Shown here piece by piece: positions 48,901 to 57,900 of a stretch of DNA of 64,000 bases. How positions within the stretch are numbered: the first letter of the stretch is position 1; every line of letters starts with the position of its first letter. Source of the DNA: Escherichia coli. GTDB lineage: Bacteria > Pseudomonadota > Gammaproteobacteria > Enterobacterales > Enterobacteriaceae. A program made the position numbers. The stretch lies in assembly GCF_048403405.1 (NCBI RefSeq), contig NZ_CP183129.1; one strand, given 5' to 3'.

Positions 48901-51900
48901 AATCGAGCATCTCCTGAGTTTCTGGAATGCCGCCAATCATAGAACCGGCTATCGCACGGCGTTTCATGATCAGGTTGAAAACTTCCGGCGATTTATGCGG
49001 TGTCGCAGGCGCACCAACCAGCGTCATGGTGCCATCACGCTTCAGCAAGGTGGTAAAATCGTCGAGATTATGTGGCGCAGCTACTGTATTCAAAATGAAA
49101 TCGAAACTCTTGAGATGAGCCGCCATCTCATCGGCATTGCGTGAGTTAACAACTTCATCGGCCCCCAGGGCTTTTGCCGCTTCGCGTTTTGACTCAGAAG
49201 TGGTAAATGCCACCACATGCGCCCCCATCGCGTGGGCCAGCTTAATCCCCATATGTCCCAGACCGCCGATGCCGACCACGCCCACTTTTTTACCCGGACC
49301 GACCTGCCAGTGACGTAGCGGCGAATACGTGGTGATCCCTGCACACAACAAAGGTGCCACCGCCGCCAGCTGCTCTTGCGGGTGACGAATACGCAGAACA
49401 TATCGCTCATGAACGACGATCTGTTGTGAGTAGCCGCCCAGAGTATGGCCCGGTTCGTCCGGCGTCGGCGAGTTATAGGTGCCGGTCATGTGATCACAGT
49501 AGTTTTCCAGCCCGTCTTCACACTCTTCGCAATGTTTACAACTGTCGACAATACAGCCGACACCGACCAGATCGCCCGGCGCATATTTTTCTACCTGATC
49601 ACCAACAGCTACCACGCGCCCTACAATTTCATGGCCCGGCACGCAGGGATAAACCGTCCCCGCCCACTCGGAACGGACCTGGTGGATATCGGAATGGCAG
49701 ACGCCACAGTAAGCGATTTCAATTTTGACATCATGCGGTCCCGGTTCACGCCGGGTGATATCCATCGATTCAAGTGGTTGTTTAGCGGAATATGCACCAA
49801 CAGCTTTGATCTTCATTGTGTTTACTCCTGATTAGCTATGTGTATTTGGCGATGCCTGATATGTCATCGCGGCAAAACGCGTCCATTGAATATAGCCAAT
49901 ATTTAAACCACCCGATCCAGCCCCAACATGCCGCGAGCCTGAATGAAACAGAGCAGCAACGTTCCCCATAAGGCCATCGTCAGGTAGGGGCTTATACCGA
50001 GAATATTGAAGCCGCTTTCAATAATTTGCAGAAGAAACAGCGCCAGCACCATACCAATTATCCGCCCGCTGCCGCCGTCCGGATTAACCCCGCCGAGTAC
50101 TGCCGCGAGGATTGACACCAGCAAGTACGATTCGCCATAAGAGGCCTTAGCCGAGTTGAGTTTCGACATCATCAAAAATGCCGCTACCGCACAAAGCAAG
50201 GCGGAAATAACATACACCCATATCAGCACCCGACGAGTGTTAATACCGGAGTAAAGTGTTGCTCGTTCGTTAGAACCAATCAGATAAATGGCTTTACCGA
50301 GCGGCGTTTTCTCCAGCAATATCCACAGCCCCAGCGCCACTGCGGTAAACAACCACATCGGTAGCGGAATACCGAACCACTGTGCATGATTCAACCACAG
50401 CACCCATGAGGGATAATTGGCAATGGCGCTACCGCCTGTCACCAGAATATTTACCCCTTTGAGCAACGTCATCATCCCAAGCGTTGCAAGAATTGGCGAC
50501 ACTCGAATACCAGCAATCAATACGCCGTTACATAAACCGATTATCACCGCCGCGCCAGCGCCCGCCAGCAGCGTAGCGACAACCGTAGCAATACCCGGTG
50601 GATACTGAGTCGCCACCCACGCCATCACCAGTGAACAGGCGTTAGCAGTGGCTATAATTGACAAGTTAATGCCACCGCAAAGCATGGTCACCGCCATAGC
50701 CAACGCCAGAATGCCCAGCACGGGCATTTGCGAAGCGACGGACTGGAAATTACTTATCGACCAGAAAATCTCCGGCATAGTAATGCTGAACGCGGCAACA
50801 GTTAGCACCAGCAGGCCGATCAAGTAAAACTCAACGTTATTACGCCACGATTTTTTCATAGCAGACTCCGGTTCTGATGCTGACTCCACGCCGTGGCGCT
50901 AATGCTGGCAACGATGATGATGCCGGTGATCAATGTTTGCCAGTAAGACGAGACTCCCAATAAATTTAGCCCGTTTTGCATCACTGCCAACAACACCACG
51001 CCGAGCAAAGTACCGGTTAACGTGCCGCGCCCGCCGAGCAAACTAGTGCCGCCAAGCACCACCGCAGCCAGTACTGTCAGCTCATAACCCAGAAGAGAAT
51101 CGGGGGCGACAGTCATCACCGTCCACGACTGCACTACACCCGCAGCACCAGACATCAATCCCATATAGCCATAGACGAAAAGTTGCAGTTTCAGCACGCT
51201 AAAGCCGATGCGACTGGCGGATTCACGGTTCCCGCCAAGGGCATAAATTTTGCGCCCTACACTGGTGAAATTCATGATAAACGCTGTTAGCAGCACCACC
51301 GTAATCATGGCGATCAGCGGCAGACCAAGGCCATAGTCATAGCCATCAGCATCGGTGTACTTGAACAACATTACCCCCTGCTCAAACCACGGCGGAAAGT
51401 CGTACAGCCACACACCTTTACTCAACCATAACAGCAGGCCATAGAAAATATTCAGCGTCGAAATGGTGATGATGATAGAAGGCACCCGTAGGCGATTAAC
51501 CAGTAAGGCGTTTATTAAGCCAAGTAAAATGCCGATGCCGCCCGCCAGGGCAAACGCGACAGCAAAGTTGCCACCAATTTTTTGCAGCAACAGCACCATG
51601 CCGTATTGCGCAATGATGGTCATTGCCGGAAACGAAATATCAATCCCACCGGAAATTAACACCACAAACAAACCACAGGCGAGAATAGTCAACATGGCAT
51701 AGTTATTGGCGAGATCGTACAAATTACCGAATGTCAGAAACTCGTCGCTGCGCCAGGCAAGGCCAACAAACAGCACCACAATCAGTAATGCCAGCCAGAA
51801 TTCATGGCGTTTTTTCAGTTCAGCCATTTACCACCTCCGCAATCCTGGCCTGAGAACTGCTGTCAGGCAGGAAGCTATGGGTGATCTGACCTTTTTGCAT

Positions 51901-54900: not shown

Positions 54901-57900
54901 CAATCAACGTTGCGAGGTGATCGGCCAACGCTGCTGAATCGCCAAAAGTACAAAAGGAAGCATGGGGATATTTTTGTGAGATTTTTTCTTTTATGGTCAT
55001 GAGAATATTTTCGCGATTACGGAAAAAAATCACATCTTAATTACTGTTGATAACCATCAGCAAGAGGATCATTGGTTTTTCTATGTTTAATCTTTTTTAT
55101 CCGAAGCCGGTCACATTTATGGCTTGATAAATACCTTTGTTAAAACTCACTTTTGTGTATTTCTCTCAAATAATCCCCTGGAAATTATGCCGGGAGATTA
55201 TAAAGTTCAGGATCATTCATTAGCAAACCATTGCTGCCCCACTCCCTGGGGCTTTAAATCTCTTACGATTCACCATTGCAGGCGTTTCAAATGCGTATCA
55301 ACCTGCCACACTCCCCCACACCAGTTGCCCTTTATGGAACGTCGCCGTTCTCGGCGAGATACGCGCCACCGCCTCGGCGGAACAGGAGGCGTCCACCAGC
55401 ACAAAGCTGGCGTCATCCTGCGCTTTGGGCCAGACGCGCTCGCCTTTTTCATTGAGCGGCAATACATCGCCAGTGGCTAAAAACAGCGAACGGGAGAGGT
55501 TCTGTTCGTTAGGGCGAATATAGAGCTGCGCGTACAGATTGGCTTTTTCCAGCATGTCGCCCAGGCCGTAAGGCGACCAGTGGTCGATAACGCTGTCGGT
55601 GCCAGTCATCACTTTTACGCCTTTGTCGTGCAACTGTTTGAGCGGCATATGCAACGTGCCAATCGGCACCGTCGAGGCGATAGAAATTTGCTGCGCCGCC
55701 ATCCGGTGCGCCAGTTCATCTACCTGTTGCTCATTGAGCGTTGCCAGCGCAAAGGCGTGGCTGATGGTCAGCTTGCCCTTCAGTTGCGGCGTTTTCTCTA
55801 CCGTTTCAACCATATAATTGATGGCTGCCACGCCTGCCGGAGTGGTTTCGTGCAGGTGAATATCGACGCCTTTGTCGTAGTCCAGCGCAATCTGGAACAT
55901 GGTGTCGAGGGATTTTTCCATCGCGCCATCAACACTGGTTGGGTCCAGCCCGCCGACGTAATGCGCCCCTGCCTGCATCGCTTCGCGCATTAAGGGTTCC
56001 GATTTCGACAGCAGCAAACCGTGCTGCGGGAAGGCGACAATTTCACACTCGAAGCCCGCCTGACGTCGCGCCAGCACCGCCTGCAAATTTTGCAGATTTT
56101 TCAGGCCGGAAACCGGTTCGATATTGCAGTGGCTGCGGGCAATGGTAGTGCCTTTCGACTGCAATAAATCGATCAGTTTTTCCGCTCGTTCCTGCGAGTA
56201 CGGTTGCAGCTCCGGCAGCATTTTCTGCTCGAGTTTGATCATGTCCTGGATGGTGGTGCCTGCCGGACGATTGAGCGAGCGCCACGGCCCGCCGTAAAAG
56301 GTTTTGTCGAGATGAATATGCATGTCGCGGGTAGTGGGCAGCATCAGCTTACCGCCAGCGTCATAGTGCGGCAGCGTGGCGTCCGGATGCTGCTTGTTCT
56401 CGCGCAGGGCAACAATTTTGCCGTTCTGAATCTCTACGGTCTGGTGCGCCGTGCGGGTCTGTACTGCCACACCGTTTTCGTAGTCAAAACCGGTTTCCAG
56501 CAGCACGTTGTCGAGATAGTAGTGCGGGTCAGTGATTTTCATGGTGTTATTCGCGTCGCAATGGATTGTGCCAGAGACTGCCGCATGGGCGAGCGGCACA
56601 GAGGTACCAAACAGCGCGGCGGCGGTGACCATCTTACCGCTCTGGCTCAGAAACTCACGGCGGCTATTGCTTTCTTTCATCTTACGTCCTTACGTTTTAA
56701 TAATATGGGTGCCCGTTTCACCGCGCAGCGCCGCAGGCAGGCATTCCGGCGTGGTGATAATCACTTCTTTGCCGCCCTGTTCCAGGAACGTCAGGCTGGC
56801 GATGATTTTTGGCAACATGCTGCCAGGCGGAAAATGCCCTTCCTGCATATAGCGGGTCATGGTGGCAATATCCACCCGATCCAGCGCCTGCTGCTGCGGT
56901 TTGCCAAAGTGAATACACACTTTTTCGACGCCAGTGGTGATCACCAGAATGTCGGCGTGAATTTCACGGGCCAATAGCGCGGTAGAGAGATCTTTGTCGA
57001 TAACCGCGTCCACGCTTTGGTAATCCCCCGCTTCACTGCACACCACCGGAATTCCGCCACCGCCCGCGCCAATCACCACAAAGCCTTGTTGGATCAGCGC
57101 CTTAATGGCAGGTGCTTCTACAATACGTTGCGGTTCCGGCGAGGCGACCACGCGGCGATAGCCCCGTCCGGCATCTTCAACAAAACGCCAGTCAGGGTTT
57201 GCCTTTTGTAATTCGTCACGCTGGCTTTCACTAAAGAATGCGCCGATGGGCTTGGTGGGATGGGCAAACCCCGGATCGTTTTTATCCACTTCCACCTGAG
57301 TCACCACGGTGACGGCTTTTTTCTCACCGTGACGCGCCAGTCGGTTATTCAGCGCCTGTTGGATCAGATAGCCAATGCCGCCTTGCGTATCCGCCACACA
57401 GTTCGCCAGCGGCGTTAAGGGCAGCCCTTCGCGCTCGTGGGCTATCTCCGCGCGGCGTAAATCCAGACCGACCTGCGGCCCGTTGCCGTGGGTCAGCACA
57501 ATGTCGTAATCGGAAGCCAGCATTTCCAGCACCGTATCGGCCACGGCTTTCACCGCCTCCGCCTGATGCTCAATCGACTGGCTGGCGTTATCTTTGATAA
57601 TGCTGTTGCCACCAATGGCAACGACCACAAGTTCTTTCATGTTGTTATGTCCGCTACAGAGGGTGATGGGGTTATGAGAGTGAGGTTGCCCCTCTCCCCA
57701 GAAGGGAGAAGGGATCGTAAGGTGCGTTTGCAGGTCAGACGCCGTAACGTTCGCACCAGCCAAGAATGGCTTTCTCGAAGCAGGCGAATGGTGGATGCAC
57801 AATGCCCGCGCCAATCATGCCGACGCCCGCATCTTTATGGGCGATGGCGGTGTTGATCACCGGCAGAATGCCGCTGCTGCCCACGCGGGTGATGTCGATT

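What the first reader, a model, noticed from the sequence alone, without database searches (positions are those of the whole stretch)
49817..55297. About 5.4 kb accessory module (CUT2 sugar-type ABC transporter plus ASCH protein) between yahK and yahJ
As I recall the K-12 MG1655 map, yahJ and yahK are adjacent. Here they are separated by five co-directional genes: a Sec-exported type-I sugar-binding protein, a tandem-domain ATPase, two permeases and an ASCH (PUA-like) protein. The module sits between and co-directional with the yahJ/yahI catabolic genes and yahK, so it may supply the substrate for the yah pathway. ASCH proteins such as YqfB hydrolyse N4-acylcytidines, which hints at a modified nucleoside or sugar-amide substrate. 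No flanking integrase or obvious direct repeats were seen, so this could equally be an ancestral segment deleted in K-12.
Basis: partly seen in the sequence, partly recalled or inferred. Interest (0 to 1): 0.55.

Follow-up and report, generated by a model that had tools for sequence, protein, structure and literature searches.

The report
Known Aau D-ribulose/arabinose transporter locus
The extra genes between yahJ and yahK are the already characterised Aau sugar importer of E. coli (it takes up D-ribulose and is switched on by L-arabinose) plus one small uncharacterised ASCH gene; K-12 lacks them because it deleted them, so the finding is real but ordinary.

Summary
Five co-directional minus-strand genes lie between yahK and yahJ, and K-12 lacks them. 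Four of them are the published Aau system (EHEC O-island 17, Z0415-Z0419). The binding protein is 326/328 identical to AauA (PDB 9I1M), which was crystallised with D-ribulose (KD about 2 uM; L-arabinose about 600 uM). Expression needs AraC plus L-arabinose, and AraB phosphorylates the imported sugar (Cottam et al. 2024, 2025).

Outside Escherichia the four-gene operon is never next to yah genes or an ASCH gene. It often sits next to araC instead.

- K-12 and B2 strains share one scar that keeps the last 72 bp of the second permease gene and 48 bp of the ASCH gene.
- Two divergent Escherichia lineages carry other partial states at the same site.

About 41% of complete E. coli genomes keep the module.

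The ASCH gene is a separate unit of the YhfF/EF3133 subfamily. Its function is unknown. It is not detectably YqfB-like by sequence.

Novelty: already known.

The parts
53353..54339 (-). aauA: periplasmic substrate-binding protein of the Aau importer (Z0415 equivalent), with signal peptide MMNKRF...PLQA|AEK
   Evidence: 326/328 identical to PDB 9I1M AauA, and about 93% to Klebsiella 3D02. All six published D-ribulose contact residues are present: K37, W43, E118, H167, E196, S223 (PMC12307932). It scores below the NCBIfam cut-offs for RhaS and LsrB.
51820..53304 (-). Aau ATPase with two fused nucleotide-binding domains (Z0416/7 equivalent), intact, 494 aa
   Evidence: NCBIfam AraG/YtfR/XylG-like hits at E 1e-127 to 1e-123, all below the equivalog cut-offs. 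Walker A at residue 37, LSGG at 397, and no internal stop. The O157 RefSeq annotation gives the same 494-aa product.
50856..51827 (-). Aau permease 1 (Z0418 equivalent)
   Evidence: AraH/RbsC-like NCBIfam hits; conserved in order across 80 loci.
49903..50859 (-). Aau permease 2 (Z0419 equivalent). Its last 72 bp (49903-49974) survive as a pseudogene scar in K-12.
   Evidence: RbsC/LsrD-like hits. The K-12 remnant is annotated as a partial pseudogene and aligns at 98-100% identity.
53326..53343 (-). GC-rich hairpin followed by a T-run between aauA and the ATPase gene. It is a possible intra-operon attenuator that would favour binding-protein excess (inference).
   Evidence: Terminator-like site with 7 pairs, 6 of them GC. 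The total number of such sites in the region is not above the shuffle expectation, so this is weak evidence.
54424..54515 (-). aau regulatory region: CRP-like site CGTGAtgaatgTCACA (54515-54500), AraC I1-like half-site ending in TCCATA (54488-54472), I2-like half-site (54467-54451), and a -10-like TATTCT (54429-54424)
   Evidence: The GTGA-N6-TCACA and TCCATA(N4)TAnC columns are invariant or nearly so across 9 taxa in 6 genera, in an alignment with 44% mean identity. The layout mirrors the verified araC-araB region. The E. coli copy alone matches araBAD I1-I2 at only 18/38, which is not above chance. AraC dependence of a roughly 300-bp promoter fragment is published (PMC11127945).
54590..55000 (-). 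ASCH-domain protein (136 aa, COG4405/YhfF, EF3133-like): a separate gene of unknown function
   Evidence: PF04266 on all homologues. PDB relatives are only 1T62 and 3S9X. K38, T39 and E95-G-E-G-D99 are invariant in the family. dN/dS is 0.14-0.21. Homologues in Yersinia and Pseudenterobacter sit in unrelated contexts.
55197..55226 (-). Sigma-70-like promoter candidate for the ASCH gene (TTGCTA-18-TATAAT), just downstream of the yahJ terminator hairpin (55236-55252)
   Evidence: 10/12 match to consensus; the hairpin was read from the sequence. Pattern match only.
49975..54495 (.). Extent of the 4.5-kb deletion in the aau-less allele (K-12, BL21, ST131, E2348/69, Escherichia sp. E2593)
   Evidence: The right end is approximate, because a 64-nt diverged stretch in K-12 aligns only weakly to 54550-54496 (3/500 shuffles).
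54638..55235 (.). Second, 0.6-kb deletion in K-12/B2 that removed most of the ASCH gene and its upstream region. It is absent from Escherichia sp. E2593.
48767..49816 (-). yahK (NADPH-dependent aldehyde reductase): flanking core gene, not part of Aau
   Evidence: RefSeq annotation; NCBIfam Ahr-like hit.
55298..56680 (-). yahJ (amidohydrolase with twin-arginine signal SRREFL): flanking core gene, not part of Aau
   Evidence: RefSeq annotation; NCBIfam PRK06846 at 715 bits, above the cut-off.

Best explanation
The segment is two independent units. Unit 1 (49903-54515) is the Aau ABC importer operon. Periplasmic AauA captures D-ribulose with high affinity and L-arabinose weakly, then docks on the two permeases. 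The tandem ATPase drives import. Cytoplasmic D-ribulose is phosphorylated by the L-ribulokinase AraB and enters the pentose phosphate pathway. Transcription starts from its own promoter downstream of the ASCH gene and requires AraC with L-arabinose, probably with CRP-cAMP. So D-ribulose is used only when arabinose is present. Unit 2 (54590-55000) is a stand-alone YhfF-type ASCH gene. By family-level inference only, it may be a small N-acyl amidohydrolase or ac4C deacetylase, and it is not functionally tied to Aau or yah. In evolutionary terms the arrangement yahJ-ASCH-aau-yahK is the older state in Escherichia. The K-12 arrangement arose from it by a 4.5-kb deletion and then a 0.6-kb deletion. 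What is shown: identity to AauA, gene content, the scars, and the synteny pattern. What is published experiment: ligand, AraC dependence, the AraB step. What is inferred: the CRP/AraC site assignment and the ASCH activity.
For: AauA identity and ligand residues; PMC12307932 (KD 1.98 uM D-ribulose, 598 uM L-arabinose, structure 9I1M, AraB kinase assay). AraC dependence: PMC11127945. Same locus in O157:H7. A CRP-like and AraC I1/I2-like footprint is conserved in 9 taxa and is laid out like the verified araBAD region. An AraC orthologue (384 bits against a cut-off of 208) lies directly upstream of the Aau-type operon in Mannheimia. AraC-like genes are adjacent in all the Pasteurellaceae loci retrieved and in Budviciaceae and Providencia, and lie within about 8 kb in two Vibrio loci. 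Deletion scars. Vertical co-divergence: dS for aau is 0.31-0.43, against 0.68 for yahK, in a lineage with about 10% DNA divergence; within E. coli, dS is about 0.05 for both aau and yahK. The ASCH segment is in 2218 genomes and the aau segment in 2220, of 5426.
Against: Transport and regulation were not measured in this strain. The E. coli AraC-like site is a weak match on its own (18/38, at chance level), and no binding site has been mapped experimentally. Apart from L031, no other Escherichia species turned up in the AauA scan, and E. fergusonii and E. albertii genomes could not be examined. An older horizontal gain into an Escherichia ancestor therefore remains possible. The near-perfect co-occurrence of ASCH and aau could hide a functional link, although tight linkage (250 bp apart) explains it.
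Confidence: 0.88

Rival explanations
1. One reading: the transporter imports a modified nucleoside, ureido-sugar or sugar-amide. The ASCH protein and YahJ deacylate or deaminate it, and the YahEFG/YahI carbamoyl-transfer genes consume the product. The whole yahD-yahK stretch would then be one pathway.
For: All the genes are co-directional and adjacent. YahE, YahF and YahG fall in the AllH, AllF and AllG Pfam families, and YahI is a carbamate kinase, so the yah cluster plausibly degrades a carbamoyl compound. ASCH and aau co-occur in nearly the same genomes.
Against: AauA binds D-ribulose in a crystal structure and by ITC, and the operon is AraC/L-arabinose-controlled (PMC12307932, PMC11127945). 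In 80 loci outside E. coli the operon never neighbours yah or ASCH genes. L031 has aau without yahC-J, L087 has yah plus ASCH without aau, and K-12 has yah alone. aau has its own regulatory region.
Confidence: 0.04
2. The published framing: the segment is a horizontally acquired genomic island (O-island 17) that EHEC and related lineages gained, and K-12 represents the original empty site.
For: The papers describe it this way (PMC11127945). The operon is patchily distributed among Enterobacterales, with closest relatives in Klebsiella, Franconibacter and Mangrovibacter at about 90-92% AauA identity. Apart from L031, no other Escherichia species appeared in the AauA scan.
Against: The so-called empty sites keep the 3' ends of the permease and ASCH genes, with the same junctions in phylogroups A and B2 and, for the aau deletion, in Escherichia sp. 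E2593. No integrase, tRNA or flanking repeats are present. GC content is like that of the flanks. Divergence of aau tracks the flanking core genes both within E. coli and against a lineage about 10% divergent. dS against Klebsiella is saturated at 1.5-2.8, so there was no recent transfer.
Confidence: 0.07
3. The binding protein is an autoinducer-2 (LsrB-type) receptor, as the RefSeq product name says, and the system imports AI-2.
For: PGAP names it 'autoinducer 2 ABC transporter substrate-binding protein'. LsrB structures are distant PDB relatives at E about 1e-21 to 1e-24.
Against: It scores 111 bits against the NCBIfam LsrB equivalog cut-off of 384. There are no lsrK, lsrR, lsrF or lsrG neighbours. 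The crystal structure contains D-ribulose (PMC12307932).
Confidence: 0.01

Closest known systems
Aau (accessory L-arabinose uptake) system of EHEC, O-island 17, Z0415-Z0419; AauA structure PDB 9I1M (Cottam et al., Nat Commun 2024 and 2025)
   Same: Same genes, same order and same chromosomal site (yahJ-ASCH-aau-yahK) as in O157:H7. AauA is 326/328 identical with all ligand-contact residues present. DNA identity to O157 is 98.1-98.6% for the four aau genes.
   Different: The ATPase here is intact, whereas EDL933/TUV93-0 carries a premature stop. The papers do not mention the ASCH gene, the K-12 scars or any CRP/AraC sites, and they call the locus horizontally acquired.
Rbl D-ribulose utilisation locus of Citrobacter rodentium (ROD_24811-61)
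   Same: Homologous four-gene CUT2 importer. The roughly 60%-identity group (21 loci, including Citrobacter amalonaticus and Serratia) has the same SBP-ATPase-permease-permease order.
   Different: Rbl-type loci carry an FGGY pentulose kinase (TIGR01315, 695 bits) and a SIS-domain gene immediately downstream. The window has neither and relies on AraB.
AraFGH, the canonical L-arabinose ABC importer of E. coli
   Same: Same CUT2 architecture and the same regulator logic (AraC plus CRP). The ATPase's best NCBIfam hit is AraG, and permease 1's best hit is AraH.
   Different: All scores are far below the equivalog cut-offs. The binding protein is of the RhaS/LsrB branch, not AraF, and prefers D-ribulose more than 200-fold over L-arabinose.
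YqfB, the E. coli ASCH N4-acetylcytidine amidohydrolase
   Same: Both carry the ASCH/PUA-like fold family PF04266. The motif Lys and a Thr/Ser two residues after the Thr are conserved (G36-V-K38-T39-A-S41).
   Different: No detectable pairwise or profile similarity to YqfB structure entries. The protein is 136 aa against 103 aa and belongs to the YhfF/EF3133 subfamily, with an invariant EGEGD motif. The motif Arg is replaced by Gly. Activity is untested.

Membership tests
Aau importer (EHEC OI-17, Z0415-Z0419) | Binding protein orthologous to AauA (PDB 9I1M) | tested here: met
   E 1e-213, 326/328 identical over the full length.
Aau importer (EHEC OI-17, Z0415-Z0419) | D-ribulose-contacting residues K37, W43, E118, H167, E196, S223 | tested here: met
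   All six are present at the published positions (residues from PMC12307932).
Aau importer (EHEC OI-17, Z0415-Z0419) | Operon of binding protein, tandem ATPase and two permeases, at the yahJ/yahK site | tested here: met
   The layout is identical in O157:H7 strain E32511.
Aau importer (EHEC OI-17, Z0415-Z0419) | Induction by L-arabinose through AraC | not testable with these tools
   Published for EHEC (PMC11127945). Here there is only a conserved CRP-like plus AraC I1/I2-like footprint. The E. coli copy alone is 18/38 to araBAD, at chance level.
Aau importer (EHEC OI-17, Z0415-Z0419) | High-affinity D-ribulose binding and AraB-dependent use | not testable with these tools
   Inferred from 99.4% identity to the protein that was assayed (PMC12307932).
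CUT2 (carbohydrate uptake transporter-2) ABC importers | One polypeptide with two nucleotide-binding domains, two RbsC/AraH-type permeases and a type I sugar-binding protein | tested here: met
   494-aa ATPase matching AraG/XylG/RbsA end to end; permeases match AraH/RbsC; the binding protein matches RhaS/LsrB/RbsB models. Walker A and LSGG motifs are present.
LsrB autoinducer-2 binding protein (the RefSeq product name) | Score above the NCBIfam LsrB equivalog cut-off | tested here: not met
   111.1 bits against a cut-off of 384.
Rbl D-ribulose locus | Dedicated FGGY D-ribulokinase adjacent to the transporter | tested here: not met
   No kinase lies between yahJ and yahK. The kinase plus SIS gene is found only in the roughly 60%-identity group.
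Horizontally acquired genomic island | Clean empty site in strains that lack it | tested here: not met
   K-12, E2348/69, ST131 and RM10740 retain 72 bp of the permease gene and 48 bp of the ASCH gene. Escherichia sp. E2593 retains the permease remnant.
Horizontally acquired genomic island | Mobility signatures: integrase, tRNA target, flanking direct repeats, deviant composition | tested here: not met
   None at the boundaries. The only tRNA call is 2.4 kb away and is not backed by Rfam. GC content is 0.48-0.53, like the flanks.
YqfB-type ASCH N4-acylcytidine amidohydrolases | ASCH domain (PF04266) | tested here: met
   PF04266 is precomputed on the protein's cluster and on all listed homologues.
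YqfB-type ASCH N4-acylcytidine amidohydrolases | Sequence relationship to YqfB | tested here: not met
   Single-sequence and profile searches of the PDB return only 1T62 and 3S9X.
YqfB-type ASCH N4-acylcytidine amidohydrolases | Octapeptide G-x-K-T-x-T-x-R with catalytic Lys and Thr | tested here: inconclusive
   The motif here is G36-V-K38-T39-A-S41-C-G43. Lys and Thr are invariant, the next position is Ser/Thr, and Arg is absent. The motif definition is from the preprint 10.64898/2026.02.27.708502.

The most novel reading that the evidence does not exclude
The Aau/ASCH segment is not an island gained by pathogens. It is an old presence/absence polymorphism that predates the diversification of E. 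coli and is shared with divergent Escherichia lineages. At least four allelic states exist at one site: the full arrangement; aau deleted; aau and ASCH deleted; and yahC-J plus ASCH deleted with aau kept. Its AraC/CRP control would then be an ancestral feature of this transporter family rather than a later 'hijack' of the arabinose regulon. The long coexistence of intact and scarred alleles would suggest niche-dependent selection on D-ribulose scavenging.
Probability: 0.65. Interest if true: 0.3.

Novelty: already known. Interest (0 to 1): 0.15.

Why it matters
The transporter's substrate, structure, regulation, distribution and role in gut colonisation are published, so the finding adds no new system. 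Three modest points remain useful:
- The 'O-island 17, horizontally acquired' label should read 'ancestral, lost in K-12, A and B2 lineages'. That changes how its correlation with LEE carriage is interpreted.
- A conserved CRP plus AraC I1/I2-like footprint gives testable binding sites for the published AraC dependence.
- RefSeq names the binding protein as an autoinducer-2 protein, which is misleading.

The adjacent ASCH gene remains uncharacterised.

Tried and rejected
1. A whole-window scan for TAGC-N7-TCCATA with 3 mismatches gave 380 hits against 381 expected, so it was uninformative. I replaced it with cross-genus footprinting.

2. A direct comparison of the E. coli aau upstream 38-mer with araBAD I1-I2 gave 18/38, matched by 308 other 38-mers in the window. 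The E. coli site alone is therefore not evidence.

3. A global alignment of the K-12 scar with near-free gap extension produced spurious 3-9-bp blocks, so I kept only the three long blocks. The 24-nt filler in the second deletion has no significant source (459/500 shuffles score as well).

4. A functional link between ASCH and Aau or yah through conserved neighbourhood was rejected. Homologues in Yersinia (after lysS) and Pseudenterobacter (near arsC and lacYZ) sit in unrelated contexts. One Serratia locus has a 45%-identity ASCH 6 kb from an Rbl-type operon, which I take as coincidence.

5. The LsrB/AI-2 and RhaS/rhamnose assignments were rejected on NCBIfam cut-offs.

6. A literature search for ASCH together with YhfF found nothing, and a search for 3D02 found nothing.

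I do not use it as evidence.

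
Full report
**1. Observation**

The interval 49817-55297 is exactly the space between yahK (48767-49816) and yahJ (55298-56680), both on the minus strand. It holds five minus-strand ORFs:
- permease 2: 49903-50859
- permease 1: 50856-51827
- tandem-domain ABC ATPase: 51820-53304, 494 aa from the ATG that RefSeq uses in O157
- signal-peptide-bearing binding protein: 53353-54339
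- 136-aa ASCH protein: 54590-55000

NCBIfam places the four transporter proteins among CUT2 sugar importers (AraG/XylG/RbsA, AraH/RbsC, RhaS/LsrB/RbsB). All scores are below every equivalog cut-off. The 8-kb stretch 48700-56700 is 100% identical to E. coli TUM14771. In K-12 BW25113, yahJ and yahK are 376 bp apart.

**2. Identity of the transporter**

The binding protein is 326/328 identical to PDB 9I1M. That entry is AauA of EHEC (PMC12307932). The published work (PMC11127945, PMC12307932) establishes the following:
- Z0415-Z0419 on O-island 17 form the Aau ABC importer.
- Its promoter is induced only by L-arabinose and is dead in an araC mutant.
- AauA binds D-ribulose with KD 1.98 uM and L-arabinose with KD 598 uM.
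- The crystal structure contains alpha-D-ribulose held by K37, W43, E118, H167, E196 and S223.
- Imported D-ribulose is phosphorylated by AraB.
- An aau mutant is outcompeted in the mouse gut.

All six contact residues are present in the window protein, and the ATPase has no internal stop, unlike EDL933/TUV93-0. O157:H7 has the same layout, yahJ-ASCH-aau-yahK. The RefSeq name 'autoinducer 2 ABC transporter substrate-binding protein' is not supported: the protein scores 111 bits against an LsrB cut-off of 384.

**3. Regulation, seen from the sequence**

A 250-bp gap separates the ASCH stop codon from aauA. I aligned this region from E. coli, a divergent Escherichia, Klebsiella, two Franconibacter, two Mangrovibacter, Symbiopectobacterium and Aeromonas. 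Mean column identity is 44%. Two blocks are invariant or nearly so:
- GTGA-N6-TCACA, at window 54515-54500, which is CRP-like.
- ...TTTaTCCATA-N4-TAGC..., at 54488-54451. This has the 17+4+17 layout of the AraC I1-I2 sites.

A conserved TATTCT/TACTCT follows 21 nt after I2 (54429-54424).

I verified my reference araBAD sequence as the araC-araB intergenic region. One caveat: the E. coli aau copy alone matches araBAD I1-I2 at only 18/38, which is chance level in this window. Klebsiella reaches 23/38. The evidence is therefore the conservation across genera and the published genetics, not the E. coli match itself.

There is independent support from gene neighbourhoods. An AraC orthologue (384 bits against a cut-off of 208) lies directly upstream of the Aau-type operon in Mannheimia. 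AraC-like genes are adjacent in all the Pasteurellaceae loci retrieved and in Budviciaceae and Providencia, and lie within about 8 kb in two Vibrio loci. AraC control therefore looks like an old property of this transporter branch.

**4. Relationship to yah and to ASCH**

A scan of one genome per species with AauA returned 80 loci. The four-gene operon is conserved as a unit. Outside Escherichia it is never beside yahJ, yahK or an ASCH gene.

A sub-branch at about 60% identity (21 loci) always has an FGGY pentulose kinase and a SIS gene downstream. This is the Rbl type described for C. rodentium.

Within Escherichia the parts separate:
- L031 has aau and yahK but lacks yahC-J.
- L087 has yahD-J, an intact ASCH gene and yahK, but no aau.
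- K-12 has yah only.

ASCH homologues at 63-65% identity in Yersinia and Pseudenterobacter sit in unrelated neighbourhoods. Its own refutation criterion is met.

**5. Insertion or deletion**

K-12 keeps window 49701-49974, which includes the last 72 bp of permease 2 (RefSeq calls it a partial pseudogene). It also keeps 54574-54637, which holds the last 48 bp of the ASCH gene, and 55236 onward. A 64-nt stretch in between aligns weakly to 54550-54496, ending in the right half of the CRP-like site. The K-12 state is therefore two deletions: about 49975-54495 and 54638-55235.

E2348/69 and ST131 (both B2) and RM10740 have the same junctions, with a few substitutions between lineages. Escherichia sp. 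E2593 shares the aau deletion junction but has ASCH intact, so the aau deletion came first.

L031 is labelled E. coli but is about 10% divergent and serves as a separate species representative. It keeps aau next to yahK and retains a 100-bp ASCH remnant joined to the pdeL side.

Divergence of the aau genes tracks the background:

| Comparison with window | aau genes | yahK |
|---|---|---|
| L031, dS | 0.31-0.43 | 0.68 |
| O157:H7, dS | about 0.05 | about 0.06 |
| Klebsiella, dS | 1.5-2.8 (saturated) | not compared |

dN/dS for the aau genes against L031 is 0.015-0.05. No integrase, tRNA or boundary repeats are present, and GC content is like the flanks.

I conclude that yahJ-ASCH-aau-yahK is the older arrangement in Escherichia. 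'O-island 17' reflects loss in K-12, not gain in O157. An older acquisition into an Escherichia ancestor cannot be excluded, because apart from L031 no other Escherichia species appeared in the scan and I could not fetch their junctions.

**6. Distribution**

Of 5426 complete E. coli genomes, 2220 carry the aau interior and 2218 carry the ASCH segment. For each query, 2213 genomes have at least 80% coverage. The whole 8-kb query is covered at 80% or more in 2205 genomes, and about 2900 genomes have the scar. Carriers include O157:H7, O55:H7, O121, an ETEC strain and the commensal strain HS. K-12, BL21, ST131 and E2348/69 lack it. This agrees with the published enrichment in phylogroups E, B1 and D. 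The near-perfect co-occurrence of ASCH and aau is what 250 bp of linkage predicts.

**7. The ASCH gene**

The protein belongs to COG4405/YhfF. Its only PDB relatives are 1T62 (E. faecalis EF3133 type) and 3S9X, both of unknown function, and this holds even with a family profile. The family alignment shows invariant K38, T39 and E95-G-E-G-D99. Compared with the ASCH octapeptide G-x-K-T-x-T-x-R described for YqfB-type enzymes (preprint 10.64898/2026.02.27.708502), Lys and Thr are kept, the next position is Ser/Thr, and Arg is missing.

dN/dS of 0.14-0.21 indicates a functional but loosely constrained gene. It has its own promoter-like site (55226-55197), just after the yahJ terminator hairpin.

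The best guess is a small N-acyl amidohydrolase or ac4C deacetylase. This is a family-level inference only, because the subfamily has not been assayed.

**8. Verdict**

The finding is real and correctly delimited, but it is already explained in the literature. The functional speculation is not supported, while the 'deleted in K-12' alternative is. Novelty: already known. Interest: low.

Noticed in passing
window 51820-53319: RefSeq for the identical strain TUM14771 annotates the Aau ATPase as 467 aa, starting at window 53223. That start removes the N-terminal strand just before the Walker A motif. The same gene in O157:H7 is annotated as 494 aa (ATG at 53304), which matches AraG from its residue 3. 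The TUM14771 start is probably miscalled.
   Followed up: partly
window 55298-59153 (yahJ, yahI, yahG): The window strain's yahJ-yahG alleles are about 4.5% diverged (dS about 0.19) from K-12, O157 and B2 strains alike, and equally far from Escherichia sp. E2593. The adjacent aau and yahK are only about 2% diverged (dS about 0.05) from O157. This looks like a recombination mosaic with a deep yah allele.
   Followed up: partly
window 57641-57734, compared with L002 6837-7257: K-12 has a 421-bp yahG-yahI spacer that carries the annotated ORF yahH. The window has only 94 bp there. In Escherichia sp. E2593 the corresponding spacer matches repeated elements that also occur at window about 16380-16470, 18440-18480 and 35607-35709 (REP/BIME-like). 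yahH is therefore probably an ORF within a repeat insertion.
   Followed up: partly
L003 (SFEK01000152.1): A 4.7-kb contig binned in a 'Bacteroidales bacterium' MAG carries the aau operon at 99-100% protein identity to E. coli. This is almost certainly a mis-binned E. coli contig.
   Followed up: no
window 47286-47366 (-): ARAGORN calls a tRNA-Ser(GGA) that overlaps the yahM end of the yahM-yahL spacer. Rfam finds nothing at gathering threshold in 44000-58000, so it is probably a false positive.
   Followed up: partly
L031 1-10000: In the divergent Escherichia strain SCPM-O-B-8794, ykgEFG is followed about 1.1 kb downstream by pdeL (yahA) and then the ASCH remnant. The bet genes, which by my recollection of the K-12 map lie between ykgG and yahA, have no room there and appear to be absent, as are yahB-yahJ (the latter shown).
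   Followed up: no
window 55298-56680: YahJ begins with a twin-arginine signal (SRREFLSQSGKMVTAAALFGTSVPLAHA), so this amidohydrolase is probably exported to the periplasm, unlike the cytoplasmic YahEFG/YahI proteins encoded beside it. Pfam now labels YahE, YahF and YahG as the AllH, AllF and AllG families.
   Followed up: no
window 49817-49902: No terminator-like site was detected in the 86 bp between Aau permease 2 and yahK. yahK could therefore be partly co-transcribed with aau under arabinose induction in strains that carry aau.
   Followed up: no
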